Source: the human T2T-CHM13v2.0 reference genome, Homo sapiens. Taken from it: 64,000 nt of DNA. The notes under the pieces are model-generated. The model made no database searches. It worked only from the letters and a program-made list of their open reading frames with translations, and had not been told where the DNA came from. Both the position numbers and the translations under genes were made by a program. Below are positions 42,198-64,000 of this stretch, one piece after another (positions within the stretch are counted from its first letter, which is position 1; each line of letters begins with the position of its first letter). The stretch is taken from assembly GCF_009914755.1 (NCBI RefSeq), contig NC_060936.1; one strand, given 5' to 3'.

Positions 42198-44653
42198 TAT
42201 ATTATCTTATTCTCTGTCTCTAAAGAGAGAGTTAAACCAAGAGCCCACAATCACACACATCAACAAACTACATGAGTCAAATTCACTGAGGAAGAGGAAG
42301 GAGAAAAAGAGGTTAGGGATATATGGAGAAGGAAAACTATGGCTCAGAAATGCAGGTACATTAGGATCTAGAGACAAGTACCTATATCAAACAAAAGAAA
42401 TATTGCTTTATGAATTCCCAGAGAATATATTTTTTTCTGAATTAAACTTACCTGTTATTAATATATTTTAATTCTCTAGTAAAGGAATTTTTAAATCTGA
42501 GTTTCTGAAGAACTCTTCTTGGTTGCTCCCCCATGAAAATCCAAAGGAATTTCTTCTAAAAGTCATAATGAACATTCCTTTAGATGTTTTGGGGAAGAGA
42601 ACTGGTGAAGCCATTTCCCCTCTGCTCCCCCTTCACCCTAGCTGAAGTGTTGCAGACCACAGGACTTTGCTTGGGCCCAAATCATTTCGCCCAGACTCTG
42701 AAATATGGGTGGTTAAAAACAGGATGCCAAAACAACCATATTTCCTCCCCTCATGCTGCCTTTTTACATGTACTCAAGACAATGCAGATTTATTCTGCCT
42801 CACCTGTGTCTAATGTTAGACGCATGCCCCAGAATGTCGGAAAACTTTTGTGTTTCATTTTACAATAAAAGAAATGTACTACCCAAGCTCTCAAGAAAGC
42901 ACAAAGAAATGAATCTGTATCCCTTAAGCTTTGCAATTCATTTTTCTTCTTTGTTGGTTCTCGAAACTGAATTCCCTGGGTTGGGGTTTTATACTACAAT
43001 TTTATCTTCTACACTTTTCTTTACTTCCCCCTTCACTCTACCCCCGCTATCCCCCCACTCCCTAGGGGCTTTGGCTTCAAATCAAAACAGCTTTCAAGTG
43101 GCCAGGACCAAGTTCCAAATCTTCTATGTTTCCTACAGATTTTCCTTCTTTCCCAGATTTTTCTAAGCCCCACTCTTTGTAGGAAGGCATGCACCTCCAG
43201 ATAGGGTCCTGACTGTAAGCATTGTGCTTGGGCCCCCATCCCAACTGCAGAAGTTTATTTGAAGTATGTTACTCTTTGCCTGCTTCTTAACTTGAGGCCC
43301 AATAGTCTTACAATGTCATTTTTTTCCCCTACTGTAAATCAAGGGACAGCTGTCTTTGGACTAAATTCCAAATAGTTGGTCTGGAAATGAACTTCTCAGT
43401 GGGTCCCTCCTCTATTCTGGCTGACATTTCCCCATTAATTTCTTTTTCTCTTTCATCCATTCATTGGCTGATGAGTCTATAAATACACCTCATCTGCTTT
43501 TACTTTGCTTTTTAAGAATAAACTGATACCAAACACACTGTCTTAATTACATCCACAGGCAAAGCATAACGAGTTTAAATGTTGTCACAATATAGTTTAA
43601 AAACTTGACATGGTTCATTATGCCAGCTGTGATAAAACTGGGAAATGAAAACCTTAATTTGGATGTGTAAATGAGTAATTCATCTGAAAAGGTATTTTTA
43701 ACATTAATAAATGAGAATACCTAGAAACCTACTAAGCAAAGGAAGGGAGTTGAACAGGAAACCGATAAGTAGATTGGTAAAGAAGCAAGGAAACCCGGCC
43801 TCCATTCCTCTTGGGCACAACACCTCTAAAATTAGGCAAGTCAGCCCTCCCAAATTCAGACCAGACCTGGGAGAACATTGTTCCTCATTCTGTTCTTGAG
43901 CATTCACATTATGAGGTGGCTGCTGATTCATGAGGATCTGAATTCTAGGTGCACATCAGGAAGGAAGGCTCAGGAAAATTCTGATTTATGCCCAGAAGAC
44001 AGTAGGTTTTGGAAAACTCTACTTTTAAGATGAAAACAAGATTAAAGGGAAGGATAAGGTAACACTCATACGTTCTTGATATAAAATTACTTCTTTTAAA
44101 ACCTTTGGTTCTGATGATATGGCTGATAACTTTCCAATAGCAGTAGCCCACTGGGATAAATTAACATTCTGAATTTTGTGAAGCAATCTTTGTTTTCCTG
44201 AGGTATTTTCACACAAACACATTCTTAACTGATGGAGAGCAATGGAGAAATAAATATTCATTTTTGAATGGGAAATAAAAGTCAATGGCAAGTTTCTCAG
44301 GTAGGAAACTACTATAATCTCCCAGTTTTCACACATAAAAAGCCTCAAGAAAATAGCAGTTAATGTACGTTGAGTCATATGTGAAAACTGATAGACATAT
44401 CAAAAAAGTTTTAAATGAGTCAAAAGAAGAAAAGGCTTACAGATGGCCAGATGGCTTTGACATTGATGGAGTAGTATAAGAAGAGTGATGATCAGATGTT
44501 TTACCGTTTCTATGAGAATCATTCAAAATAAATGTGATTAAACTGTAGAAAAATCAATTTTGGCAATGTATAAGAAGTTGCAGACTCTAGCTGGAACCCA
44601 TTCATCACCAGATGAGTTTATTAAAGGATACTGTGGAAGAATCCTTTTCTGGG

Positions 44654-44818
44654 TTTTCTTTTTTTTTTTTAGACACAAAGTCTTGCTCTGTCACCTATGC
44701 TAGAGTACAATGGTGCAATCTTAGCTCACGGCAGCTTTGAACTCCAGGGCTCAAGTGATCCTCCTGCCTCAGCCTCCCAAAGCTCTGGGATTACAAGCAT
44801 AAGCCACCATGCCCAGCC
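44654..44818 (-). mobile_element. Alu monomer (FAM/FRAM-like or collapsed AluJ)
   Basis: ~165-bp single arm with poly-T; flanking aagaatc on both sides. Confidence 0.8.
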
Positions 44819-45309
44819 AAGAATCTAGTTTTTTTAAAAAAAGCTCAGGGAACAGCATGTTAATACTAACTCTGTGCTAGGCATTTTCACATAAATATCT
44901 TACTGACTCTTTGCAGCAACTCAGCAATAGGCATTAACTCTGTGCAACAAGACGTACAGATAATCTCCAATTGTCATGCATTCAACTTCCATATATCATG
45001 TGTGGACAGCTATACACTGCTTACTACATACTAAAACCACGCTTTTATACATCAGTTTTGATGAATAAACTTTTTGAGGGCCCTGGTGGCTGCTGGCTGG
45101 CTAATAATTCAGTTTGACAGCCTTGCTTCTAGACAGACAATGCTGTGGATTCACCAAACCATTTAGTTTCTCCCCTGGGCACATGGAAAAACTACATCTC
45201 CCAGTCATTTTGCATCTAGATGGCATATTGTGACAATTGATGGCCAATGAAGTGTAAGAAAGTGTCAAGTGTGTACTTCTAGCCCTGGCCCTTAAAAAGA
45301 CCCATGAGA

Positions 45310-46199
<890 letters not shown>

Positions 46200-48154
46200 C
46201 CACTGGACTGGACTTTTTATGAGAAAAAAAATTAAACTAAATCAGTGAAATTTGGAATTTGTTTGTAACAACAGTAATTAACAATAACTACCCTTAAGAA
46301 ATAACTTCTATGAATTCAGTGATCCAAACAAAGATTAATATTGGTGCAATTATTTGAATATTTTACTGTAATTTGTCATAATTTTTCTATTAAAAATTAT
46401 GAAAATAGAATAATAAAGGTTTAAATACTAGTAACAGGAGTATCATGAACTTAATATAATACAGAAAAGAATAATAATTATTAGACATATTAAAAGTGAT
46501 GTCTCTAACCTCAGCCAGGCGCTCACTTAAGCATGTTGACTACACATTCGGTTACAAAGAAAAATAAAATTAGAGAATGTGTGGGAGATGCTAGAATTCT
46601 AATCATTCAACTATTGTGTCTAAAAAGCAAGACTTATATCAAAACAGGATCCCTTGCCCCTTTTATATTAAATCCATTGTTTCACTATCTTACAATCAAC
46701 TTGCAGGCATGTTTTCAGGATCAAAAGACAAAAGTGTCTTTTTTCTTATTTTTAAATATAAGAATATTAAAAATCAGAAAAGTTGAACAATTCCCCCAAA
46801 GTCTTGTTAATAAATAATAGAATTAAGATGCATTTCAAGATTGGCATCAGCCTAAAGCCTTATTCTTTTCATTATACCTCACTGCCTCTCATCTCTGTAA
46901 AAAATTAGGATGTCTGCCTGTCTTTGAAGAACAAAATATGTAAAATGAATGATCTTACAGCGCCCCCTTTGAGCACTTTGATTCTATGATAAAGACATTT
47001 CCATCATTTCCTGATGTTGTGAATGCAGGAGGCTCATGAAAAATGTCCCTTTACTACAAAGGTTGGCAAGTGCTCAAAGATATGGCTTTAGTCAGCTATG
47101 CCATGCTGTCTTTACTAAACAGCATTATTTCTAGGAAGAATTTCTATTACTTTAAAGTGGAAAATAAAGTTACAACAACATTAAAGAGTATGTTACAGTT
47201 CCACGCTCTATTCTGTTGGCAGAAAGCTTGGTCTCTGCACCAGCATTCTGCCCCAACTGGCCATGTCTCAGGAGAAAAGAATTCCTCTCATCTCTCTACA
47301 GCAGCCTTTTCTGCTTAACTTAGACCCCCACCAAAGCCGGGTGATGAATACAAAAGGTTTCTAAAGAGAGAAATGGCAAGGAGAGAGCTTGGAGACACCC
47401 TACCTCTTGAAAAGAAGAAAAAATAAGTAAATAGTTTATTATCATCATGGGCCTTGGAATGACATCATAAGACCATCCTTTGTCACCTCTGCCATTTCAA
47501 AGCCAATGCGTATGAGCTATTTTAACTGAAAAAATTATTTTTCATTGACTATCCAACAACTTTGACTTTATACAGTATTTTGAGAACCCATTTTTATAAT
47601 AACTCAGTTCCACAGACTTTTGGACTCATTCGAAAGTGCATGTAGTGGTCAGACTTTTGCTTGTGAGTGATATCAGTGTGAAAATAAGCTTTAATAAAGT
47701 TGCCAGCATCCATGGACCTCTGTACCCATAACAACTTCCATGGCTTCAGTTCTGCCAAAGGTTTTGCTTGATGGGTATTTCCTATGAAGCTTCTCCTGCT
47801 TTCCCACCCATAGCACTGTTCTATGGCCCACACGGGGCCAGAAGCAGCCACTAGGAGAAATTATTGGTCAGGCAACCCTCCAGTGCCGCAAGCCCGGCCC
47901 TCCCTCTTCATGTCCCTGAGCTGTGTCCAAAAATAGAAAATGAGACATGATGATGGATTGAGAGTAGGAAGAAGGGAGGGATCTCGGGGTGAGTGTTTAA
48001 GTCAACACAATGGAATTCCACCAGCAAAGGCTTGCTGCATAAATCACTCTTGAGAGAAAGTTGGGCACACTGGGAAGTGTGTTGGGGCTTCCAGGCAAGT
48101 GGTGGATGGGCACTATCAGGAGGCACACCCAGAAAGAGGTGGGGCAGTGTGGAA

Positions 48155-48297
48155 CAGGACTTCTCAAACTTGAATGTGCCCATGAATAACCTGGAGATCT
48201 TGCTGAAATGCAGGTTCTGACTCAGTTGTCTGGGGTGAGGCCTGAGATACTACCTTTCTAGTAAACTTTCAGTTGACAATACTTTGAGGAGCAAGGA
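48155..48297. mobile_element. MER5 (hAT-Charlie), followed by a MIR remnant
   Basis: cttctcaaacttgaatgtgc...gaaatgcaggttctgactcag...actttgaggagcaagg. Confidence 0.8.
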
Positions 48298-48665
48298 TGT
48301 AGAAAGTAAGAACACAAAGTCCGATTTCAGAACCTATGAGCTGTGAAACCTTGAGCTTCAGTGTTTTTATCTGTGAAATGGAGATTGTTTTAAGTACTCT
48401 TGTATCAGATTATTGTGAGCATTAAGTGACATGATGTCATTTACCTGGGACATAATAAAGAATTCAATATGTTGATCGCCATCAATATTTTATTTTTACT
48501 CATTTGAGCATTGGGGCAGCTTCCAAAACATTGATCTGTCGATTTGATTTTTTAATGGTGAGACGAGGTGCGCAGAATGAAGTGAAGTCCAGGGTGGAGG
48601 GATAGGAGTAGGTGGAGGAAGTGGGAAGAAAAGTAAGCCTGGGAAGGAATAAAAAGAAAGATCCC

Positions 48666-49235
48666 CCTTTCGGCCGGAACCACCATCTTCCAGTAATTCA
48701 CCAAAATGACGAATACAAAGGGAAAGAAGACAGGCACCCAATATATGTTCTCTAGGCCTTTTAGAAAACATGGAGTTGTTCCTTTGGCCACATATATGCG
48801 AATCTATAAGAAAGGTGATATTGTAGATGTAAGAGAATGGGTACTTTTCAAAAAGGAATGCCCCACAAGTGTCACCATGGCAAAACTGGAAGAGTCTACA
48901 GTTACCCAGCATGCTGTTGGCATTGTTGTAAACAAACAAGTTAAGGGCAAGATTCTTGTCAAGAGAATTAACGTGCATATTGAGCACATTAAGCACTCTA
49001 AAAGCCGAGATGGCTTCCTGAAACGCGAGAAGGAAAATGATCAGAAAAAGAAAGAAGACAAAGAGAAAGGTACCTGGGTTCGACTGAAGCCCCAGTCTGC
49101 TCCACCCAGAGAAGCACACTTTGTGAGAACCAATGGGAAGGAGCCTGAGCTGCTGGAAACTATTCCCTATGAATTCATGGCATAATAGGTGTTTAAAAAA
49201 AAAAAAAAAAAGACCTGTAAGGACTGTAAGAAAAA
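48666..49235 (+). pseudogene. RPL21: RPL21 processed pseudogene, full-length cDNA; 159-codon open frame 48706-49185 with an internal frameshifted segment
   Basis: MTNTKGK...[18 protein letters not shown]...IPYEFMA; intronless; pyrimidine 5' leader; A-tail; 15-bp TSD aaaaagaaagatccc at 48651-48665 and 49236-49250. Confidence 0.97.
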
Positions 49236-49999
49236 AAAAAGAAAGATCCCTACCTATACCTTCATCATTCATGTTCAGACAGAAAATTTCCCAGTGACAG
49301 ATGCATCGCTGTGAAATTACATTAAGAGAGGTATTCCTAGGGAAGCTGCGGGACATGCTTTGTGGTTTCTTCATCTATTACGAAAATAAAGGCACTGAAG
49401 TAAGGCTGTAGCTACCAAAGTACCACATTGCTTTAACACACATGTGACTCTTACAGAACTTTTTTACATTAGGGATAATAGCATAAACTTATCAACTGAA
49501 TTAAACAAAGTAAACCAAATTATTTTTGATGCAAATACAGAGTACTCCACCAAAATTTTGGTCAAAGTGCTTAACTCTTAAACCTTTCTCCAGTGCTCTG
49601 AGATTACGAGGGGCACAAGTGAAGAATACCTAAAATTGTAATTGCACCCTAGTGGCCCAACAGCTGACTATAGTCCATGGAGTTTTGGGTTTTGGTTGAT
49701 TTAAATTAATTGTTACATTTAAATAAAGGAAGAGTTTGGCTCAATTCCCTCCCAGCAACTAGAAGCTGAAGTTGAGTAATGGATACTCCTTTTAAATGAG
49801 ACATGCACTCTACAGTTTGCGACTGTTTCCACTATTCCTTATAAGCATACACAGACTTTACTCATTTACCTTATCAATCTAAGCCTGTGTAGAGAGTTGA
49901 GTTTGTCACTCCTGACCTAAGAAGAGGTGGTAAAGAAGCATGGGATTTCTTCCTAGAAGGATGAATAAATGCAAAAGAGATGAAAAATGAGGGGAAACC

Positions 50000-51990
50000 C
50001 CATTTTTTAAATATTTACTCACATATTTACCATTTAAGTGCTCTTCATCTCTTTCTGTAGGTCCAAATTCCCATCTAGTATCATTTTCTTTCTGCTAAAA
50101 GAACATTTAACATTTCTTAACGATCACACGCCTTTTATTGACCTGAAAAAAATTTTATTTTGCCTTTATCTTTTAAAAAAATCTTCAGTAGGTATAGAAT
50201 TCCAGGCTGGCAGATTTTTGTTTTTCTCCAGCACTTAAAAGATGACCTTCCATTGTCTTTAGGCCTGCATGGTTTATGACGAGAAGCCTGCTATAATTCT
50301 CAAGTTTATATCTCTGTACATAACGTATCTTTTTCTCCCTGGCTGTGATTTAGATTTTCTTTTTGGCATTAATTTCAGAAATTTAACTATGATGTGCCTT
50401 AGTGTGATTTTTTTTATATTACTGCTGTTCGGAGTTTGTTGAGCCTTTTGAATCTATGAGTTTACATTTTTAATAAAATTTGTATAATTTTCAGCCACTT
50501 CTTCAAATAGTGTTTCTGTTTCACCCACATCACATTTGTAAGACTCCAGTTACACATATGTTGCATGGCTTTATAAGATCCCAGAGTTCACTGGGGCTCT
50601 CTGTATGTGTGAGTTTGCTTTTAGTCTTTTTTGTTCTTTTTTTTTTTTTTTTTTTTTGAGATGGAGTCTCACTTGGTCACCCAGGCTGGAGTGCAGTGGC
50701 ACAATCTCGGCTCACTGCAAACTCCACCTCCCATATTTAAACAATTCTCCTCCTCAGTTTCCCAAATAGCTGAAATTACAGGCACCAACCACCATGCCTG
50801 GCTAATTTTTGTATTTTTAGTAGAGATGGGGTTTCTCTATGTTGGCCAGGCTAGTCTCAAACTCCTGACCTCAAGTGATCCACCCTCCTCAGCTCCCAAA
50901 GTGCTGGGATTACAGGCATGAGCCACCGTGCCTGGCCTTTTTTTTTTTTTCCAACCTGTGATTCATTTTGGATAGTTACTATTGCTATGTCTTCAGGTAC
51001 AGTGACTTTTTCTTCTGCATCATATAAGATGCTGGTAATCCTATCCAGCTTATTTTTTATTTCATATTTCCATCTCTATAAGTTTCATTTGGGTCTTTTT
51101 AATATGTTTTACTCCCTATTCATAGTGTTTATGTTCTCTTTTACATCCTTAAACATAGGATAAACTTTGTTAAGGTCCTTGCCTACTAATTCCATTATCT
51201 CTGTCATTTCTTGATCTATTTCTACTGATTAATTTCTCTCTTGTTATAAATCACATTTTTACACTTTCTGGTATATCTACAAATTACTATTTGAATTACA
51301 GATATCGTTAATTTTATTTTATTGGGTGCTGGATTGTGTTCTCTTCTTTAAAGAACATTGGATTTCGTGGCAGATCAGTTTGATTCATGAAAGGCTCATT
51401 TTTACATTTTGTATGGTGGTTCCAGAGCAGCTTTTATTATAGGACTAATTTACTCCACTACTAAGGCATGGCACATCTGAGGACTTCACCCAATGCACTA
51501 TGTATTTTGAGGTTTCTCCACTCAGGCTGGTAGAAACACGAAGTATTCCCGGTCCTCTGTAAGCTCTAGGTATTGTTCAGCCTGTGCTTTCAGGGAGTTC
51601 TTCACCGCAGTCTTCATAGTGTCTTCACGAGCACATGCAGATCAATAAAACTCATCCAAAGACATGGGGTAAGTGCTCTGCAGATCTCCAGAGCTTCCTT
51701 TCTATCTAGTTTCCTCTTTCTGGTAAACTCCCCTGCAAATTCTAGCCTCCTCAGTCTCCCCAGACTTTAAACTCTGTCTCTTCAACTTAGCAAGACCACT
51801 AGGCTGTTTTGGTTATTCCACCATGGGTAGTATCCTGGAAACTGCCTCCAGGTATAAGGTGTGGCAATCACAGGGCTCATCCCATTTATTTTCCTACTCA
51901 CAGGGATTAAAATCTTGTTGTCCGATGTCTGACGTTTTGTCTCATTTCTAACTGTTTAAAATGGGAAGACAATTGCTGTAGCAGTTAATC
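50000..51990 (-). mobile_element. Old L1M (5'/ORF1 region), interrupted by an Alu
   Basis: T-rich antisense L1: cacttaaaagatgaccttccattgtctt, tttaactatgatgtgccttagtgtg, gactccagttacacatatgtt. Confidence 0.75.
50627..50937 (-). mobile_element. AluS
   Basis: Full dimer with poly-T. Confidence 0.93.
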
Positions 51991-52859
51991 ATTGATGGTC
52001 AGCAGCAGAAGTTAGTGTAGTTGCTAGAAAACCAAGGCAAGGAGAGCATTTCAGGCAGGGCAGGGATGATCACATAAGCCAAGGCAAATAGGTGAGAAAC
52101 AGTAATTATGAGTATCAGAAAACAGCAATTTGGTGTTGCTGCACCACAAAGCTAAGGCTGGAAGGGACTGGAAAAATATGAGGCTGATGCCGGCATCCAG
52201 GGCCAGAATTTGAGGCTTCTGGGGTTATGTGATTAAGAACTATGGAATAGGAAGAAAAACAATAGTCAAAGAATTAGGAGACCTGGGTTCAGATTCTAGT
52301 TTATTATTAGCCATGTAACTTTGAACAACTCTTTTGTGCTTTAGTTTTCTCATTCGTAAAATAAGAAACCTTCCTTAGTTTTTGCCCAAGACTATATTTC
52401 AAGGTAAAATTTTCATAACTGAGTTCAGTGGAGGTGGGGGGACCCTTTGGGCTGGGGTCTTCAGAGAAAATAGGTTTCTAATACCAAGTATTTACTGGAT
52501 ACCTGCTACATGCCAAGATGTGTGCCCAGAGCTTTAAATACATGGTTTAGTCCCTACAATGACGCCCCCCGCCCGCCACTCATCCCACAGATCAGCCAAC
52601 AGAGAGGTTAATAGTTTGTCAAAGGTCACATGACTAAAAAGTGATGGTAACAAGATCTGAACTCAAGTCTGAGTAATTATATTTTGCTGCTCCTATCTTG
52701 GGCCAGATATCACTATGTCTTTAAAGCTCCTTGGGTAATTCTAATGTGCATCCAGGGTTAACAGTCACTGACTAGAAAGGTTAAAAGCAGGTTTGAGACA
52801 ACAACCTTAATAATTGAACAAGTAACACCTTGAATAATGCCTCCCCTCCCTAATTAAGT

Positions 52860-53099
52860 CAATTTGCACACACAGTGATTGTACCTATACTCCAGCCCAA
52901 CCCCTATAAAGAGCTGGAGAATGGGTGGGTGACTCTTTGATTTTCTGGAACAGGATGTCTTCAAGAGGTGACCTCCTCATAGAGCGAGTGGTCAGTTGTA
53001 CTATCTAATCTTCTTTGTGCTTTTTGCAACAGTACAGATTGACTAAGAATATATTAATATTTATTAATTTGGGGGCAAATTGATGCCACATTTTATGCA
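52860..53099 (+). repeat. Left arm of long inverted repeat
   Basis: Reverse complement of 54911-54946 plus 55591-55796; 21-bp exact core agtggtcagttgtactatcta (52987-53007). Confidence 0.9.
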
Positions 53100-53139
53100 A
53101 TTTAATTTTCGGAGCATAATGATGTTATTATAATAACAT

Positions 53140-53370
53140 TTTACTGTAACAATAGCAATTGAAACCCTACTAGGGTCCATGTACTGTGCTGAGCACCTGT
53201 ATTATTTCAGTTAATTCTCACAACAACCTCATGAAGTAGTTGCAGCTATTGTTCCTGTTTTACAGAAAACTGAGACTCTAAGTTACACAGTGAGGAGTGC
53301 AGAAGTGAGCCCAGCCAGTATGGCCCCCCAGCCAAAGTTCCTAGCCCTTCACTGTGTCGCTGCACTTCTT
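53140..53370 (-). mobile_element. MIR
   Basis: ttaattctcacaacaacctcatgaagtag...tgttttacagaaaactgagactc. Confidence 0.75.
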
Positions 53371-54910
53371 ATAGTGGCTACCGGAGGGAGGAAGAAGGCA
53401 TTTTGTTTTTCTTTTTCAGTTACAAATAGTGAAACAAGAACAATCAAAGGGGCTAAATAATGTCCTATCATCCTTTTAAAACATAGACTAGAACAAAAAA
53501 TGAAACTCTTGATTCCCTGAGACTAAAACCTTTACATTCTTCTGGTCTCTTGTATGTGAAACCTCATTTTTGGCACACGGGTCATTGCTCAAAAGCAATG
53601 CGTGCCTTTATCTTTTTGATCTGTGTGTGGTCTCACTAATGTACGTGTGTTAGGGCCGTGCCACAAATCTGGCACCCCCTTCACTAGTAACGATTTTACT
53701 ACGCAGACCACGTTAACGTGAAAAACCTGGAACAAAGAGAAACTCTGACTAGCAGCATTGTTTTCATGGGGAAATGGGCTACATGATATATCACCCATTG
53801 ATAGGAAAAACAGTTTTAAAACATTTTCTTTTTAGGGTGAGAATTGCCAATGTCTAAATCAAAGATGAATACTTAAAAGATCTAGGGACATGAGAAGCCA
53901 ATAATAGCTTGGATGATAATACAGAAGCCTCCATTCAAATATCCTGGAAACTTGCACCCAGTTTTAAGCAAATGAGCACAAGTGTGTCTCTGATTGAGAC
54001 CAAATGTTTTGGAACGCAATTTTACCTTAGACAAGTCTTGGTTATTCAACAGATAATAGGTTTTGGCGAACTTCTCTACGGGACAAATAGACATTTTTCC
54101 AACAGCATGTAAAGTGACTTTTTCACACTTCTAGGAGAAAAAGGTACGGGAAGAAGTGCCTTGCTGATTAGGAAACCTTAGTAGCCTCCGATCATAAATT
54201 TTGCCCACCAGCAACATTGGCAGTGACAACAGCGTGCATAAGAAAAATGCGTAGATGACTCCATTGTTTCATTTAGATTGTTAGTTTTAACTTCTCTCAA
54301 GCAAAAAACAACTCTTTGATTGAGCTTACTATGAAGTATGAAAATTAACATAAATATAATTCCACACACACTCCCAGCTCTAAAGAGGCGTTTATAAAGA
54401 CAGCAGAAAAGCAAGCCAGATCAAACATAATAGCAAATTGGATAGTAGCCTGGAATTAACAGTGGATTGATGAATCAACCTCACATTTTTATCATTTTTC
54501 ACTTAAGAAGCTTTGATCCAGTGTAAAGATTATTTATTCTCTCAAACCCTGTGCATAGTGAGTGCTGCCCTGGGGTATATTCAGTATCAGAATTATTGTG
54601 GAAGAGATTTCCCCACTGGGCAGGAGTTTGGACTAAATGATTCTAGATGTTGGGTAGAACATGCTGAATTTGTAGATAACAGGTCTGTTCAAGGCCTGAG
54701 GAAATCGTGCAGCCAACCTCGAGCCATTGAAACACTTCCAACAAAGCTTCTGAAGTAAAAACATTGAGTAGCTCCCAGGTTTGTTCCAGTAAACATTGGC
54801 CATGTTGGGGACAGGTGGGTAATGGAGTCTAAACATCCCTGGACACTGTGCCGCAGATTCTTTCAGTGTTCTCTGTGGTCTGCCAGTGAAGGCTAAGTTC
54901 TTGGACTCCA

Positions 54911-55796
54911 TGCATAAAATGTGGGGTCACTTTGCTCCAACATTAATGAAGCGGTGTCATTTGTCTGGGGTAAATACCCAAGATTCATTGTCTGATGGCC
55001 ACGGAAAACTAGGACGGATACGTACACACACAGAGTGAGGTTCAGAGTGGAAGTTTAATATGCAAAAGAAAGAGAAGAGCTCTCTCTGCTGCAGAAAGAG
55101 AGGTCCTGGAAAAACAGGTTGCCCCTTCCGTAGTGAAATGCAGAAGGTTTTATTGATGAGCTTGAGGAGGCCGTGTCTGACTTACGTAGGGCACAAAAGA
55201 TTGGTCGGACCAGGTGTGCCATTTACATAGTGCACAAAGAAGTGGACCGCCGCACCCTAATCTTTTATTATGCAGATGGGTTATCTACCTGGCCGGTGCC
55301 ATGTTGCCTGGTTCTTTACTGCACAGGTGGTGACAAAGAAAAGGGAAGATGAAGACTCCATGCTGAACATACCTGGCTTCCAGGTAGCCCTACTTTGTTG
55401 GCACAGATGCTGGCATTTACCTGTGCAAGCTTCCAGCTTGCTTATCTATGTCCGCAGCTCAATTTTTCAGGCTGCTCTTTGTTAGAAAAGAAATGATTTG
55501 GGGGTTGCTTTGTGTTAAAAGGGAAGCCTTGCCAAGGACTCTCTTACCCTCACTATCTGCCTAAATAATTTATTTCTATTTCCTGTATCATTAACACATA
55601 TTAATTTATATCCAGTCAATATATACTTTTGCAAAAAACACAAAGACTAGATAGTACAACTGACCACTGGCTGAACTAAGAAGGTCCTTGAGGAGGTCAC
55701 TTTTTGAATGTATCCTCTTCCAGAAAATTGAAGCATTACCCACCCGTTCTGGAGGCTTGGCTGTAATATAGAAATAATCACAGTGTGTCCAAATTG
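54911..55796 (-). repeat. Right arm of long inverted repeat, split by LTR9
   Basis: tgcataaaatgtggggtcactttgctccaacattaa [LTR] ttaac...tagatagtacaactgaccact (55648-55668)...aatcacagtgtgtccaaattg. Confidence 0.9.
54947..55590 (-). mobile_element. LTR9-family (ERV1) solo LTR
   Basis: Minus strand starts tgatacagga...aattatttaggcagatagtgagggtaagagagtcc; TG...CA ends; 4-bp TSD ttaa at 54943-54946 and 55591-55594. Confidence 0.85.
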
Positions 55797-57039
55797 GTGT
55801 CCCTTTGGCAACTCAAATCTGTAAGTCCAGGTTTCCTACCCAACAGGTAGGAGGTCTTTGCTGGGTCTTTAACCTGTGGGGGCTGAGGCAAAGTGGTAAC
55901 CATCTGCAGCAGAACAACAAGATGCTTCTGGCCCCAGGAAAGACATTCCAACAACTGCTGGGCAGGCCCTTGCCTGTATCATTTTAACAGCCATACTCCC
56001 ATAAGGGTGTTTCTCAGCCCATACTGGAGAATCAAAGAGGATGTGATCTCAGCTGAAGCCTGACAGCAGGACTGAATCCATTGAATTTCTTGCATTAAAA
56101 CTTGAAAACCTTCTAAATACATTCATGTGAACATTTTCTTATGGTCCTGAGTTTTAAAAAATTAAATCATTATTAAAATAAAAATCTTAATAGCTGCCTT
56201 AGTCCTCTAAACTGGTAGCATGAGTTTTACAACTCCCTCTGTAACAGATGTGGGACCTCCAACTTACTTGGAGTCTTACAGAGAGCCTTGGACTTTGCTG
56301 CCACCAGAGTACCGCTGGTAGCTGCAAGCATAAGAGGACGTGATTCATCCTCCACTCCCTGTGCAGATGATCCGGCAGGGCTGTGAGAGAAGAGCTGTCT
56401 GTCCAAGCCGCTGATGAGAGCTTTCCTGTGGGTTTCATCAAAACTGAAGCCAAGTCCAAAGGGTTATGTCAAGAAAATTGCATTAGACAGTGCCCTTTCA
56501 ACATTTAAATGCCCATGCCTTTAAAACCCTGAATAGAATTGATGATATTTCCCTCTGAAGCTATTTGCTCATGAGAAACATCAGGAAAACCATCTTTCTT
56601 TTCTCTTTTTGACAAGAGAAGCATTGGATGCAAAGGACAGGCAAGAATTGGTAGGGAGGATATACCACTAACGGACAGCATTACCAAGACAGCACAAAAG
56701 TAAGGATGTACTGTTGTGCTACTCTTATTTTTGGCTTTCCGTGATAGCAATTGGAAATAATAAAAATAAAATAAATACAATCAGTGAGGGTGAGAATGGG
56801 CCAGGGGTGGAATGTGGAAGAAATTCCCTTTCTGGTGCTCTCCTATTGCTGAGCAGCTAGAAATCGCTTCAGAACATTGCTTCTGCCTTTCCCGGCCACA
56901 TCCTCTCTCTTTTCCTTCTATAGGCAGTAGAGTGAAAGGGTGAGGGAAAAGTCGCCGGCTTCAGAGAGACCTGAGTTCTAGGCCCAGGTCTGCCACTACA
57001 CTGTTTTTAATTGTGTTTATAATCTTGATGGGTATTCAC

Positions 57040-57270
57040 CAAGTAATTTATCAAGTGCTTACTGTGTGCTGGGCACTCTTCTCAAGGCTTTGAGTCTATT
57101 AATTTAGTTAATTATCACAATGATGATAAGTACTTATTTTCACACCACTTTATACATGAGACAGCAATTAAGTCACTTGCGCAATGTCATACAGCTCAGA
57201 ACTGGAGGACCTGGGATTCAAACACACAAAGTCTGGCCACAGAGCACAAGCTCCTAGTGACTACGCTATC
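57040..57270 (-). mobile_element. MIR
   Basis: tttatcaagtgcttactgtgtgctgggcac...ctgggattcaaacac. Confidence 0.75.
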
Positions 57271-57364
57271 TTTCAAGTTATCTAAGCCCATTTTCTCATC
57301 TTAAAAAATATAGCTTATAAGCCTCATAGAATTATTATGTTGGTTAAATGAGATAATGCATATA

Positions 57365-57535
57365 GGCCGGGTGTGGTGGCTCACACCTATAATCCCAGCT
57401 ACTCGGGAGGCTGAGGCAGGAGAATCACTTGAATCCAGGAGGCGGAGGTTGCAGTAACCCAAGATCATGCCACTGCGCTCCAGTCTGGGTGGCAGAGTGA
57501 AACACTGTCTCAAAACAAAACAAAACAACAAAAAA
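57365..57535 (+). mobile_element. Monomeric AluS chimera (left-arm start joined to right arm), inside a MIR
   Basis: ggccgggtgtggtggctcacacctataatcccagc|tactcgggaggctgaggcaggagaatc; 15-bp TSD gagataatgcatata at 57350-57364 and 57536-57550. Confidence 0.9.
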
Positions 57536-59513
57536 GAGATAATGCATATAAATTTAGCACAGGGCCTGGGGTATAGTAAGCAATAAAAAGATGTCAGATA
57601 TTATTTTTTGACTTTCTCTGTCCTTTCAGCCCAGACCCCCAGAGGTGGAACCAGCAGGGGAAACTTGAAGAAATCGTGCCAGTTTCTTTTCTTCCCCACC
57701 CAGGGAGTCCTGTGTTCATATACTGTTGTGCTACATAACTAATACTTGAAGGAATAATAATGAGGCCATTGAGTGCCAATAATATGTTAGGCATTATACA
57801 AAATTCGTCATTCTACAAAACCTGTTTGCTTCCCAAGCCTACTCAGTCTCTGCTGAGTGGGTTTAAGATTACTGGCAATATATCCATTGCAAACCCTTTT
57901 AGCCAGGAGTGTCTGCTGCTTTGTCTTTAAGATTTTGTCTCTGCAAGAATATTGGACTCTTTGATTTCAGCGGCAAGGGTGTTTGGGTAGCAGCCAGAGT
58001 CTAACATTTTTTGTCCTTTAAAGCCTTCATGCATCTGTTGTTTGGCCATCACAACTGACTGCCTTGACTTGGTTGGAATTACAACTCAATTTACACCCTA
58101 TATTTTCCCTTTATTTCTTCAGCATCATACAGGACTCAAGATTTAACAGCATTTCTTTGACTTTCTGGCCTCCTCTCGAGACTTTGATTTATTTCTACAA
58201 GCCATATAACAGTGTTCTTGGCAGCCAATAAGAACTCTTCAATTGGACACTCTAATCAGGCTCTTTTCCTTGGCAACAAGTTCTAGCCACCTCCTCTTCT
58301 TTGCTGAGAGAAAACTCAGAAAAAAAAAAAAAAAAAAAAAAGGTGCGCCAGTTTAGAAGGAAGCAAAAGCTATCTCAACAGGTGAAAGAAAGCCAACTCT
58401 CGTGAAAGTGGGAAGGGAAAACTCTGCCTCTATAGGTATTGTTTCTTTAGGAAGCCATAAGGCCAAAATAACTGGTTATAATCCAGAGTATTGAATGTTT
58501 TTCCTGATACTCACTTGTCACATGATTTAAGTCAAGCCTGTTTGCTTCTCGGGGACTCAGTTTTCCCATCTGTAGAATATTACTCTCTGGCATCTTCACC
58601 ACAGAGTTTAAAGCATTGGCCATATGTTAACCTCTTTACTTTTCACAATCCTGTAAGAGTCAGGCACAGATACTTTGCTTCAGACCTGAAAGGAAAAAGA
58701 GAAGCAAAGAAATTGTGGGGTCTGCCTACAGTTGCAGTATAGCTGGGATAACAATTTACATTGTTTATCTTAATGCCAAATGCTATTGTTTTCCAGAAAC
58801 TTCTCTGTCAGAAAAATGGAATTATTAACAGAGAAATATGGCACCTTGCTTGCAAGTCATTTGACTTGGCTGTTTAAATGAAGTTAGGGGATTTCAAAAC
58901 CCAATCTAATAGAAAAACATTGGTCAGAGTTTGACATTATACAAATATTTCATACTTGGGGCCTACTGCCTTGAAACACTGACTAATCCTCACTGTTACC
59001 TTGTGAAATACATTATTAGTCATTATTAGTTCCATTTTACAGCTGGAGGAACCAAAGAAGAAAGTTCAAATGGCTTCTCTGGGGCCACAGAGGAAGTCAG
59101 TACTACACAAGAGAAATTCTTGTATTTTCTCTCTCTTTTGCTCACCCAGATAGAGAAAGCAGGTTTTCTGGAGAAGTTCTCACATCTGAAATCATTCATG
59201 AAACTAGAGGCAAATTCACATGGCATTAGTTTTTGAGAACAGTCACAGCTACAGCATTTCTAAAAATGTAAACATAACAGCAAATGTAAGATCCATATTG
59301 GAAAAACACCCTTGAGGTTGTGTTTCTCTAATTGTAGTCATTGGGCTTCCAGGAATTTGAGAGCACAGACCCCAAATCATTCACAGACCATGACACTTCT
59401 CTTACTCATGAATTAACTATATATTGGTATTCAATGAAAAGCTGATGTCTTTTTATGCGTACCCTAGCCAAAAATAATGCTAGGCTTCCTGATGATTCTC
59501 AAGATGTGTGGTG

Positions 59514-59515
<2 letters not shown>

Positions 59516-59552
<37 letters not shown>
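59516..59552. repeat. (GT)~18 microsatellite
   Basis: Direct reading. Confidence 0.97.
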
Positions 59553-59553
<1 letters not shown>

Positions 59554-61251
59554 TGTCAAGTAGACATTTACTGAACATTAACTGTGTATCAAGCACTGTG
59601 CCTACTTGTTGGAAAATAGAAGTAAAAATCTCCTTCCCCTAGAAGAATTTAGGATTTAGGTAAGAAAATAAAATACACATATCTACCAGGCTCTGGTAAA
59701 ATCTAGAGTTCAAATATGTTATTTTTAATTTTGCTTAACCCCATATTTCTTTAACTTTTGGAATTCAGAATTTTTCTTCAAGAAGCACCTAATAATAATG
59801 CCACTATAATTAGTACTTTTCACTTTAAAATTAATTTTTTAATCTCTCCATCAGTATTCAGGTTTAGAATTTCCTAAAAGACCATGTACTTAAGCTTTCT
59901 TATAAAACAATTACATCATCAAGATGCAAATAAAGACTTCTTAATTTCCATTTATATTCAATTATTTTATGTTAAATTTGGGCTTCCCGTCTGCCAAGTT
60001 ATATGCTGTATGGTGAACATATAAACAGGAAGCCAGCATTAGCCCTGCCCAGTAGTGTAGTGGAAGAATGACATGGAAACCTCTGATTGCAATACAATGA
60101 GACGAATGCTGGTTGACACACCTACAATATATGACCAGCGCCTGGAAACCAGCCATGCTAGCACATGGGGGTGCACGGAGGTGTACCGGGCGAAGGAAGG
60201 CTTTATGGAGGAAGTGATGTTTGAGCGGCTCTGAAAAAAACAGAAGGTCCCCAAGGTGAGAAGAGGATGAGGACTTTTCCAGGCAAAAGGAGAGGCAAAA
60301 TGGCGTGATTTGGGAGTCTCCTGGGGATCTACCCGTCAAGAGAAAACCTCCTGAGAAGGTCTATAAGTGGAGCAGCGTCTACAGGGCGCTTCGCACAGCA
60401 AGCTGAGTCAAACACCAAACTGCTTCAGCTAACGAAATCTGCTGCCAGCATCTTCTGCTGTAACCTGCAAACACTGAGATACCTCTAACTTCTCGCCTTT
60501 CTTCCCTTCTTCCTCTTCCAAAAAAAAATGGTAGTGTCTGCTTCCAACTTCTCAAGCATGTGGAAAAAGACCTTGAGCTCCATCAGTGAGTAAGACCAGA
60601 TAAACAGCAGTGCAGTGTTAGTGTCATCTTTGTCAGACTCATGAAAGAGCCTCCTTAAACAATAAATTATCATCAACATTCCAGGGTATAGTTGCTTAAT
60701 ATGTGTACTAGCCACGTCTCTGATACCTCTTCTTTCCGGGGTTTACCCTTTGGCTATTTCACTATTTGTTAGCATTTATGTACACAATTGGTTGTGCAAT
60801 TCTACTCTTTCAGCTGCTGTTAGTTCTTGTGGTGATGAAAGGTAAAACAGAGGGTGCAATAAGATTCAGGAATAATCTGTGGACTTTTATTTTTTAGTGT
60901 GATCTATCTCACAGAAAATTGACATGTTTGTTTTTATTTTATGGAAAACTAACTTTACTCTCAAAATGTTCCTTTACCGTGTTTTTTGGTGAAAAACATT
61001 TTTAAATAGTCTCCACAATTGTTGAATGGCTACTTTTCTGATGAATTTCTTAAGCAGTAAGAGAAGTCCCTACAGCAAGCAGTCTGCTGTTTTGAAATTG
61101 TTTGCAAGGGAAAGTATTGTATAAAGATAATTATGTTGTGGCTAAAGAACTATCTTAGGCTAAAGTCCTTGAACAAAGAACAGATAAGCATGTCTTTGTT
61201 TGAAGTTTTGTGGTGAAATAATCATTGGCAGCTTATGTAGATATGCCTTGA

Positions 61252-61575
<324 letters not shown>

Positions 61576-61809
61576 TCTATGAAAATATTTTTTTAAATGT
61601 GGAGCATTTGCTGGGTAACAAAGTACCTTTTTTAAAAAAATCCACATTGAAGAAAGTCATGTATTCACTCAGCAAATATTTACTGAGTTGCTTCATCTGC
61701 ATAAACACAGATATAAATTCTTGATACATCATTTTTAAAACAAATAATGATTATAATTACTCAAGGGGAACTTAAGACTGATTACTGTTGGCAAATACAA
61801 AATCATAAT

Positions 61810-62330
61810 ACCATATATTGAGCAATTACTAAATATCAGGCACATACTAAGTGCCAAATGTATATATTATCTCACTTAATCCTCTTGGTAACTCTTTGAG
61901 GTATTTTCATTAACCCTTTTTTACAGGTGAGGAATCTGAAAGTCAGAGAGATAAAGAAACTTGTCAAAGTTTGTTAGAGCTAATACACAGAACCAGGTTT
62001 TGAACTCTGGAATGTCTAGTTCCAAAGGCTTATCACTTAACCACTATCTCCCCATTGCCTTAGGTAATATATTAGCCAAAAGAAGAGCTACTTATTGAGA
62101 TACTTATCCCTGGTTGGTAACATGGTAACACATCATTTACAGTGTACAAGATGTGTAGCCACTAACAACAACCCTTGAGGCAGGTGTTTATTAACTCTTC
62201 TATTCTAGAGCTGAGTAAATTGAGACTTAAGGAAATTAAGGGACTTACCTAAAGTCATACTGCTAGCATGAGGCAGGATGAAGACCAGAAGTCAGGAACA
62301 ACTCCTCTGCTGTTGCAACTGTACCACTCT
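61810..62330 (-). mobile_element. Two tandem MIR remnants
   Basis: ttttacaggtgaggaatctgaaagtcagagag and gagtaaattgagacttaaggaaattaagggacttacctaaagtcatac. Confidence 0.75.
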
Positions 62331-64000
62331 GTACTACAAAGAGGTAGAAGGAGAAGTGATGGGAGGTTTGTCTTTCAAAACACGTGCACATGCACTCCAC
62401 AAGTAAGGAGGTACTAGTACTTCTCTTTGTGTTAATAAAAATAATAATTTGAATTAAAATGCCTCTCAATTTTAATTTTACAAAAATTCAGCAGCAATTA
62501 AAACAATTCATTAGCCTAACAATAAATACCAACAGAATCACATATTTAGAGTCCTCATAAAATATTAAGGTATTACTGATTATAAAAAACATATTTTTCT
62601 TGGTTTCTGTATTTAATAGCCTTTCAAGGGCTGGAGATTGTTTAGAATTACAGATAATGATTTTAAATCTTTTTCACTGTAGGAAAACATAGCAAGATAA
62701 AACGAGGAACTCATTATCTACCTGTTTTAATATGAAAGCGGGTAAATTTTCCAAAATGAATTGTTAATGAAAACTCTGAACAGATAATAAACCACGAAGA
62801 GACCTTTCAATCCCGTTAATTCTTGAAGTTGAAATTTTTAAATTTAAAATGGAGAGGAAAGAGTAAAAAACTCTATCCCTCTGAAGGATGTTTAGAGGAT
62901 ATCATTCAAAAATTCGGTGCCAACAACAATTTATACACAGCATGAAGAACAATGAATTCCACTTCTGTGGTTGTATCTGGAGAATAAAACAAGTCAAAAG
63001 GAAAAATTCCAAAGAAGGTTTAAATTTATTCTCCAACCTCAGAGCCTAGTTCGAGTTCGCCTGTGTGGTTTTATTGCTTAGTTCACACATAGGAATTAGC
63101 ACTGGGGATCCTAAAAGCCTGTTTAAAAAAAAAAATCTTTTGCTCCTGGTGTTGATACAAGAAAACACTCTTTCTTAAATTCAGTATGTGATTATTTGCT
63201 TCCTCATAAGTTCAAAATGCATGAAAAGAGAGAGGGGAGTGTCTTTAAAAAAGAACATCCTTCCACCACATTTTAAAACATTGCTCTTTTGTCAATGACA
63301 GGCAATTGGGGGCTTCTAAAAACAAAGGAACATAGTGGTATCTTTCAAATTAGTCAAGAGGGAATTTAGTGTCAAGTTATGTTCATAACCAGATTACCCA
63401 TGGAGTTGCTTTCTGTAGTTACTTCTTTATAGGGAATATATATAACTTAAATTTTAAATCACCAAGATTTAACATTGATCTTTACTACAGTAAAATCCCA
63501 CTGTGGGGGAAGGAGGGGGAAACTCTTACCATGGCATTCCTTCAGGAATAACTTTTTATAGTTGCAACCAGATAAAATATGATTTGCCTATAAGATGAAA
63601 GCTACTACTATATTTTACCATCTGCATTATATATTACTGTGAAATTATATTAAAGTTATATTGAAATAAGTGCTAGAAGAAGACCAATTGTCTAACCAAA
63701 GAAAACATTCAGAAATCTAATAGTTTCAGAAAGGAGAAATGTAAGGTACAAAATGTATATTTTGCCGAAGTCGTATAACAGAATGATCAAGGAAAGAGCA
63801 TCTAAATTGCCTAGGAGTCTAGGCGTTCACAGTCATGTGTTAAACTCCAAGATAGGTGGAATCTCACCATCCTGACATAACCACATGAACCACTTGTAAA
63901 TATACCATTTACATTAGCATTTGAACTTTATCTGATACCTTTCCACACTTCAGAGGCCACTGCCAATCAAACTAGTTTTTTAAAATGCATTAGCTCTTTT

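What the first reader, a model, noticed from the sequence alone, without database searches (positions are those of the whole stretch)
52860..55796. Ancient ~240-bp inverted repeat bracketing a 1.8-kb core, with one arm later split by LTR9
Seen: 52860-53099 is the reverse complement of 54911-54946 joined to 55591-55796, at about 75% identity by eye with a 21-bp exact core. Homology runs straight through the LTR9 insertion point (TSD ttaa), so the inverted repeat predates the LTR. I do not recognise the arms as Alu, L1, MIR or a known MER. Inference: this could be the long TIRs of an uncatalogued fold-back or MULE-like element that captured host DNA, an old inversion or template-switch scar, or a duplicated regulatory module. 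If transcribed, the arms could pair and loop out the core.
Basis: partly seen in the sequence, partly recalled or inferred. Interest (0 to 1): 0.75.

Follow-up and report, generated by a model that had tools for sequence, protein, structure and literature searches.

The report
Inverted duplication split by solo LTR
A 240-base stretch of otherwise unique human DNA was copied in reverse 1.8 kb away tens of millions of years ago, and one copy was later split by a retroviral solo LTR of the LTR9 group; it looks like an ordinary neutral scar.

Summary
Left arm 52860-53099 is the reverse complement of 54911-54946 plus 55591-55796: 188 of 229 aligned columns match (82%), with 5 indels, far above shuffles. 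Both TTAA copies beside the insert map onto one TTAA of the left arm (53064-53067). So the repeat existed before the insertion.

The insert, 54947-55590, is a real 644-bp solo LTR: TG...CA ends, a 4-bp target duplication, and 1616 first-look candidates in the genome. Print and an Rfam hit tie it to the LTR9 group (ERV1, HUERS-P3 kind); the subfamily is unresolved.

Each arm finds only itself and its partner in the whole reference. A profile search adds only chance-level hits. I found no flanking target duplication, no other copies and no Pfam match in the core ORFs, so the long-TIR transposon reading is not supported.

The arms differ by K2P 0.21, about the same as LTR copies differ from each other (0.20). 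"Ancient" therefore means roughly the age of the LTR family, about 45-70 My.

Best reading: one local inverted duplication of unique DNA, from a staggered-break micro-inversion or a template switch. It shows no sign of function. Outgroup genomes, which I could not reach, would decide between the two mechanisms.

The parts
52860..53099 (+). Left arm of the inverted duplication, unbroken, 240 bp
   Evidence: In the whole reference it matches only itself and the right arm.
53064..53067 (.). Single TTAA in the left arm. It corresponds to the site that the LTR duplicated in the right arm.
   Evidence: Both right-arm pieces align onto these four bases.
53100..54910 (.). Core or spacer, 1811 bp. It is unique in the genome apart from one old dispersed-repeat piece.
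   Evidence: 17 matches, namely itself plus 16 short ones that all fall in core positions 73-178. 0 of 7 ORFs (56-92 aa) hit Pfam.
53172..53277 (.). Piece of an old high-copy interspersed repeat inside the core. It looks MIR-like by recall; no library was available to name it.
   Evidence: 16 dispersed matches of 39-99 bases at 76-92% identity.
54911..54946 (-). Right arm, inner piece (36 bp). It ends in the first TTAA copy (54943-54946).
   Evidence: 30 of 36 against 53064-53099.
54947..55590 (-). Solo LTR of the LTR9 group (ERV1), 644 bp, TG...CA. Its sense strand is the window's minus strand.
   Evidence: 1616 first-look candidates, 40 scored, 80-84% identity over nearly the full length. 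TSD and ends. Poly(A) hexamer and strand. Naming.
55591..55796 (-). Right arm, outer piece (206 bp). It begins with the second TTAA copy (55591-55594).

Best explanation
A single local rearrangement in a primate ancestor copied 240 bp of unique, non-repeat DNA in inverted orientation 1.8 kb away. The simplest route is a small inversion of the core made by staggered breaks, where one 240-base overhang is filled in and so ends up at both ends, inverted. A replication template switch that pasted an inverted copy nearby is about equally possible. Later a provirus of the LTR9 group (ERV1, HUERS-P3 kind) integrated into the right arm at a TTAA, duplicated those four bases, and collapsed to a solo LTR by recombination between its two LTRs. 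Since then both arms have drifted neutrally. The structure has no detectable function today.

Shown: the repeat, its sharp ends, its uniqueness in the genome, the order of events and the nature of the insert. Inferred: the mechanism of the duplication, the collapse of a provirus to a solo LTR, and neutrality.
For: - Real and sharply bounded repeat.
- Only two copies in 3.1 Gb. Each arm used as a DNA query gives 2 candidates, itself and its partner.
- A profile of the arms adds 16 weak hits (E 0.013-7.5). Eight are copies of one abundant, unrelated ~600-bp repeat that shares a 35-45-base motif with the arms. The other eight are singletons that agree with each other no more than chance: 60 of 466 against a null of 62 +/- 6.5.
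- The same model run on the 64-kb window gives 63 non-arm hits at E<=10 where 10 are expected. Its E-values are therefore about 6-15 times too optimistic, and the weak hits are chance-level.
- The core is unique except for one old repeat piece.
- The order of events follows from one TTAA in the left arm against two in the right.
- Arm K2P is 0.21 and 0.19 for the two pieces. LTR copies give 0.202 over 703 pairs, and 0.191 for the window LTR against 37 copies. This fits a duplication shortly before, or in the same epoch as, LTR9-group activity with no constraint since.
- The staggered-break model, and inversions with only one breakpoint duplicated (12 of 18), are described for Drosophila (PMC1885836, abstract and passages).
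- Template switches that give an inverted repeat around an inverted spacer are described for human and chimp at the scale of tens of bases (PMC5453318, passages).
Against: - No outgroup sequence could be reached. The orientation of the core before the event, which arm is the copy, and the age by presence or absence are all untested.
- I saw no microhomology at the four junctions by eye.
- The published template-switch events are tens of bases long, not 240 bp with a 1.8-kb spacer.
- The two best weak genome hits (E 0.013 and 0.019) are borderline even after correction. A very old low-copy family from which the duplicated segment came cannot be excluded.
- The follow-up search with a second profile did not complete.
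- No Dfam or RepeatMasker library was on hand.
- Gene conversion between the arms would make them look younger than they are.
Confidence: 0.75

Rival explanations
1. The arms are the long terminal inverted repeats of one uncatalogued DNA transposon (fold-back or MULE-like) that carries 1.8 kb of captured or internal DNA.
For: The form fits: two about 240-bp inverted arms with sharp outer ends around a core.
Against: No target duplication: the 8 and 9 bases outside the two ends match at 2 of 8 and 2 of 9 (read), whereas arms at 82% identity predict about 6-7 of 8. No other copy of arm or core in the reference. 0 of 7 core ORFs hit Pfam. An element young enough to keep arms at 82% should have left relatives at similar identity, as the LTR did.
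Confidence: 0.06
2. Two independent insertions of one very old, low-copy interspersed repeat landed 1.8 kb apart in opposite orientation. Gene conversion kept them alike.
For: Borderline weak hits elsewhere in the genome (best E 0.013 and 0.019). Such families are invisible to pairwise search.
Against: The arms are 82% identical, but no other sequence exceeds 58-69% over 72-151 columns. The weak hits behave as chance. No target duplication flanks either arm singly (by eye). There is no long identical tract of the kind conversion leaves: the longest run is 21, P = 0.33. A close pair is unlikely for a low-copy family.
Confidence: 0.1
3. The pair is a maintained functional module: a hairpin-forming transcript or a duplicated regulatory element.
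For: The arms could pair if both lay in one transcript: duplex -206 kcal/mol against -67 +/- 5.6 for shuffles.
Against: No RefSeq transcript or functional element lies over 50000-58500, and the window holds only MIR6074 and LINC02425. Rfam finds nothing in the arms. The arms have diverged as much as neutral LTR copies of similar age and carry 5 indels. One arm tolerated a 644-bp insertion.
Confidence: 0.03

Closest known systems
Inversions made by staggered breaks, flanked by inverted duplications of unique sequence (Drosophila melanogaster group; PMC1885836)
   Same: An inverted duplicate of ancestrally unique, non-repetitive DNA brackets a segment. Often only one breakpoint is duplicated (12 of 18 there). 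The duplicates then decay by substitutions and small deletions (passages).
   Different: Those inversions are chromosomal in scale and were polarised with outgroups. Here the bracketed segment is 1.8 kb, the species is human, and inversion of the core is not shown.
Template-switch mutations of the four-point model (PMC5453318; PMC7954356, listing only)
   Same: [quoted passage not shown] That type made up 23% of events in the human-chimp comparison (passages).
   Different: The published events involve tens of bases. Here the arm is 240 bp and the spacer 1.8 kb. No junction microhomology was seen.
DNA transposons with long terminal inverted repeats (fold-back, MULE)
   Same: Long inverted arms around an internal segment.
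   Different: No target duplication, no second copy, no transposase trace.
LTR9-group solo LTRs of ERV1 (internal parts HUERS-P3 / HUERS-P3B in the Repbase table, PMC5753468)
   Same: For the insert only. TG...CA ends and a 4-bp target duplication. It aligns over 531 columns to the LTR that hosts MIR4428, which print labels LTR9A1. Print counts 2,011 LTR9 copies (PMC5529029), against 1616 rough first-look candidates here.
   Different: The subfamily is not resolved. The LTR9A1-labelled anchor is at K2P 0.27. The DSCR4/DSCR8 promoter LTR, which a review calls LTR9, is at 0.32. The 37 nearest copies are at 0.15-0.23.

Membership tests
LTR9-group solo LTR (ERV1) | LTR ends TG...CA | tested here: met
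   The window LTR starts TG and ends CA. 26 of 37 fetched copies keep both.
LTR9-group solo LTR (ERV1) | 4-bp target-site duplication. That this length is typical of class I / gamma-like ERVs is recalled knowledge. | tested here: met
   TTAA on both sides here. In the family, 17 of 37 are exact and 30 of 37 match at 3 or more of 4. The shifted control gives 1 of 37.
LTR9-group solo LTR (ERV1) | Dispersed multi-copy family whose copies share the same two ends | tested here: met
   1616 candidates, 40 scored, 80-84% identity, most spanning query 1-644 or 15-644.
LTR9-group solo LTR (ERV1) | Sequence likeness to a copy that print names as LTR9 | tested here: met
   Rfam mir-4428 matches 55289-55361 (E 2e-4, 37.6 bits, below the gathering score of 90). 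hsa-miR-4428 lies in ERV1 LTR9A1 (PMC10379226, Table 2). Its host LTR (L020) aligns to LTR positions 86-644, 531 columns, K2P 0.27. The DSCR4/DSCR8 LTR (L039) aligns to positions 1-454, K2P 0.32.
LTR9-group solo LTR (ERV1) | Match to the Repbase/Dfam LTR9 model, and assignment to a subfamily | not testable with these tools
LTR9-group solo LTR (ERV1) | Association with HUERS-P3-type internal sequence | not tested
   Taken from print only (PMC5753468 table). All 37 fetched copies look solitary. Inner genes were not fetched, by rule.
Long-TIR DNA transposon (fold-back / MULE-like) | Terminal inverted repeats | tested here: met
   in form only.
Long-TIR DNA transposon (fold-back / MULE-like) | Target-site duplication flanking the whole element | tested here: not met
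   Bases outside 52860 and 55796 match at 2 of 8 and 2 of 9. Only a 2-base GT is shared (read).
Long-TIR DNA transposon (fold-back / MULE-like) | Other copies of the family in the genome | tested here: not met
   (2 candidates each). Matches in closed regions are not shown, and very old copies could be missed.
Long-TIR DNA transposon (fold-back / MULE-like) | Transposase remnant in the core | tested here: inconclusive
   0 of 7 ORFs of 56-92 aa hit Pfam at E<=0.1. A decayed or non-autonomous element would also give this result.
Staggered-break inversion with inverted duplication | Inverted duplicate of otherwise unique sequence at the ends of a segment, with sharp limits | tested here: met
Staggered-break inversion with inverted duplication | Bracketed segment inverted relative to the ancestral order | not testable with these tools
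   No primate or other mammalian genome besides this reference was reachable.
   The arms are 82% identical. The best other sequences reach 58-69% over 72-151 columns and behave as chance.

The most novel reading that the evidence does not exclude
The arms are the ends of an orphan, single-copy long-TIR mobile element (or the last survivor of a family otherwise lost) that entered a primate ancestor and carried 1.8 kb of foreign or captured DNA. That would explain why arm and core have no relatives anywhere else in the genome.
Probability: 0.05. Interest if true: 0.55.

Novelty: new member of a known kind. Interest (0 to 1): 0.2.

Why it matters
The locus matters little in itself. It is a clean, datable example of a kilobase-scale inverted duplication of unique DNA in the human lineage. 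A nested solo LTR gives a minimum age without needing outgroups. If primate alignments showed that the core is inverted, this would be a vertebrate, small-scale counterpart of the staggered-break inversions described in Drosophila. It would also sit between base-scale template switches and large inverted duplications. For annotation, it shows that a long inverted repeat around unique DNA need not be a transposon.

Tried and rejected
- **High-copy repeat origin of the arms.** Rejected by whole-genome DNA searches with each arm and by blastn of the arms against the window (no third copy).
- **Old low-copy family.** I built a sequence-only profile of the arms, R1, and searched the reference. It gave 16 weak hits. 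Eight belong to one abundant ~600-bp repeat that shares only a short motif with the arms. Eight are singletons without shared derived states. Running R1 on the window with filters off showed that the E-values are inflated 6-15 fold. I read all 16 as chance. A second profile, R2, was built from the arms plus the eight singletons, but its genome search did not complete.
- **Wider homology.** None beyond the arm ends. Other inverted pairs in 44000-64000 look Alu-type by eye.
- **Coding or RNA content.** 0 Pfam hits for 7 core ORFs. Rfam finds nothing in the arms or core except a GibS match at E 0.79, which I ignored.
- **The 21-base exact core as a sign of constraint or conversion.** Rejected, P = 0.33.
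- **Retrocopy with twin priming.** Considered and rejected, because the core has no parent elsewhere.
- **Subfamily naming.** Two print anchors place the LTR in the LTR9 group but in neither anchor's subfamily.
- **Literature.** Searches for small primate inversions with duplicated ends gave the Drosophila model and nothing on this locus. I make no claim that the locus is absent from print. Supplementary files (the LTR9 ortholog figure and tables of PMC5529029) were closed and may hold the age of LTR9 copies.
- **Rates and dates.** The substitution rates used for dating (about 1.5-2.2e-9 per site per year) and the date of the New World / Old World monkey split are recalled, not taken from a call.
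Full report
**1. Observation**

The sequence and the repeat finder show four collinear inverted blocks that link 52918-53099 to 54911-54950 and 55590-55750. I aligned the left side against the two right-hand pieces separately, as the rules require.

- 52860-53067 pairs with 55796-55591: 158 matches, 35 mismatches, 28 gapped bases in 5 gaps. Score 175, against a maximum of 38 in 200 shuffles.
- 53064-53099 pairs with 54946-54911: 30 of 36. Score 48, against a shuffle maximum of 40.

In all there are 229 aligned columns with 41 mismatches, which is 82% identity. Counting gaps it is 71.5%. The 21-base exact run is there, but it is what 229 columns at this identity give by chance (P = 0.33).

Both pieces end on the same four bases of the left arm, TTAA at 53064-53067. 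These correspond to 54943-54946 and to 55591-55594. Homology ends sharply. Neither the inner nor the outer flanks score above shuffles (146 of 300 and 272 of 300 shuffles reach the observed score).

**2. The insert**

54947-55590 is 644 bp. It starts TG, ends CA, and is flanked by TTAA on both sides. As a query on the whole reference it gives 1616 first-look candidates. The 40 that were scored are 80-84% identical, most over the full length.

I fetched 37 of them after dropping one truncated copy and one copy split by an insertion.

- 17 of 37 have an exact 4-base duplication and 30 of 37 match at 3 or more of 4. A shifted control gives 1 of 37.
- 26 of 37 keep TG...CA.
- A poly(A) hexamer lies 113 bases from the 3' end on the window's minus strand. 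27 of 37 copies keep one there, against 4 of 37 on the other strand. The LTR's sense strand is therefore the minus strand.
- All 37 look solitary.

So this is a real solo LTR of a dispersed family. The 4-base target duplication is, from recalled knowledge, typical of class I (ERV1) elements.

**3. Family name**

No repeat library was on hand, so I named the LTR from its own sequence plus print.

- Rfam's mir-4428 model matches 55289-55361 (E 2e-4, 37.6 bits, well below the gathering score of 90).
- Print places hsa-miR-4428 in an ERV1 LTR9A1 (PMC10379226, Table 2, passage seen). Two other papers say LTR/ERV1 (PMC10136691 and PMC4233971, passages).
- The LTR around MIR4428 in this reference (L020) aligns to positions 86-644 of the window LTR over 531 columns at K2P 0.27.
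- The DSCR4/DSCR8 promoter LTR, which a review calls LTR9 (PMC11007075, passage), aligns to positions 1-454 at K2P 0.32 (L039).
- The 37 nearest copies lie at 0.15-0.23.

The insert therefore belongs to the LTR9 group, but to neither anchor's subfamily.

The Repbase table pairs HUERS-P3 with LTR9A1/B/C/D and HUERS-P3B with LTR9 (PMC5753468, passage). I did not look at inner genes.

**4. Ages**

- Window LTR against 37 copies: K2P mean 0.191; at non-CpG sites 0.166.
- All 703 pairs among the 38 LTR copies: mean 0.202; at non-CpG sites 0.179.
- These are the best-scoring copies, so the values are low estimates for the family.
- Half the pairwise distance is about 0.08-0.10 per lineage.
- Arms: K2P 0.209 (193 columns) and 0.188 (36 columns). 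That is about 0.10 per arm, with a standard error near 0.017 by my own arithmetic.

With recalled rates of 1.5-2.2e-9 per site per year, both figures fall at roughly 40-70 My.

Structure fixes the order: the duplication came first and the LTR second. The two events are not separable by divergence. In print, an LTR9B/HUERS-P3b insertion in TRIM5 is shared by New World and Old World monkeys (PMC3597737, passages). This fits activity of the group before that split. "Ancient" therefore means early anthropoid or primate, not mammal-wide. Gene conversion between the arms would make this a minimum age.

**5. What the arms are**

- Each arm, used as a DNA query on the 3.1-Gb reference, returns two candidates only, itself and its partner. 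The same tool finds old MIR-like copies for a stretch of the core (16 hits) and hundreds of candidates for the LTR, so abundant or similarly aged families would have been seen.
- The arms are not soft-masked.
- A sequence-only profile of the arms adds 16 weak hits with E 0.013-7.5.
  - Eight of them are copies of one abundant repeat of about 600 bp. They share only a 35-45-base motif with arm positions of about 49-95.
  - The other eight are singletons at 58-69% identity over 72-151 columns. Where they differ from the arms they agree with each other no more than chance (60 of 466; null 62 +/- 6.5).
- Run with filters off on the window, the same model gives 63 non-arm matches at E<=10 where 10 are expected, and 11 at E<=1. 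Its E-values are thus 6-15 times too optimistic on human DNA.

I read all the weak hits as chance. The two best remain borderline. A second-round profile search did not complete (listed under steps to tell).

**6. The core and surroundings**

The core, 53100-54910, is unique apart from the old repeat piece at about 53172-53277. Its seven ORFs of 56-92 aa have no Pfam match. Rfam finds nothing in the arms or core worth noting. RefSeq has no transcript or functional element over 50000-58500. The other inverted pairs nearby look Alu-type by eye.

**7. Mechanism**

*A transposon with long TIRs* is disfavoured.
- The bases outside the two ends match at 2 of 8 and 2 of 9.
- No second copy exists.
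- No transposase trace was found.
- An element young enough to keep 82% arms should have left relatives at similar identity.

*Two independent copies of an old family* is disfavoured. The arms are far closer to each other than to anything else, and there is no conversion-like tract.

*A single local event* is what remains. Two described routes fit its shape:
- an inversion by staggered breaks, which leaves an inverted duplicate of unique DNA at the ends of the inverted segment, often from one breakpoint only (PMC1885836);
- a template switch that gives an inverted repeat around an inverted spacer, described at much smaller scale (PMC5453318; PMC7954356, listing only).

I saw no junction microhomology. 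Without outgroups I cannot choose between the two routes or say which arm is the copy.

**8. Function**

The arms could form a long imperfect duplex if both lay in one transcript (-206 kcal/mol against -67 +/- 5.6 for shuffles). That follows from complementarity alone. Divergence equal to that of neutral LTR copies, five indels, a tolerated 644-bp insertion and the lack of any annotated transcript all argue for a neutral relic.

**9. Verdict**

This is a real, datable, but ordinary structural scar carrying an already known kind of solo LTR. Interest is low. The one result that would raise it is an outgroup alignment that shows either an inverted core or an empty site with target duplications.

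Noticed in passing
window 55289-55361 (+), inside the LTR: Rfam mir-4428 matches over the full model (1-73) at 37.6 bits, E 2e-4, far below the gathering score of 90. It reflects homology of this LTR with the LTR9A1 copy that hosts MIR4428, not a miRNA gene here.
   Followed up: yes
window 53172-53277 (core), and by eye also about 52600-52720 (left flank): Pieces of an old high-copy interspersed repeat, MIR-like by recall. The core piece has 16 dispersed matches at 76-92% identity. The left-flank piece was only seen by eye.
   Followed up: partly
window about 52908-52954 (arm positions 49-95); loci L043, L045-L048, L050, L052, L055: A 35-45-base motif of both arms resembles an internal stretch of an abundant ~600-bp dispersed repeat family, whose copies are 63-86% alike. 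I read this as chance similarity multiplied by copy number. I could not name the family.
   Followed up: partly
window 50000-58500: The reference's soft-masking (stretches of 100 bases or more) covers only 50622-50958 and 57340-57572. The 644-bp LTR, with over a thousand genomic candidates, is not masked. Absence of masking here therefore says little about repeat status.
   Followed up: no
L039 (DSCR4/DSCR8 promoter, chr21) and L020 (MIR4428 host, chr1): The copy that a review calls LTR9 is further from the window LTR (K2P 0.32, 415 columns) than the copy labelled LTR9A1 (0.27, 531 columns). The two anchors differ from each other by 0.30. Names in print do not map simply onto distance.
   Followed up: partly
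window arms 52860-53099 vs 54911-54946 and 55591-55796: Transitions and transversions between the arms are about equal (20 against 21). The LTR comparison with L020 shows 70 against 48. The numbers are small and the difference is unexplained.
   Followed up: no
L042, L044, L051, L054 (flanks of weak profile hits): These four loci share a separate ~220-bp repeat at about 79% identity, in inconsistent orientation relative to the arm-like hits. It is probably an incidental common repeat.
   Followed up: no
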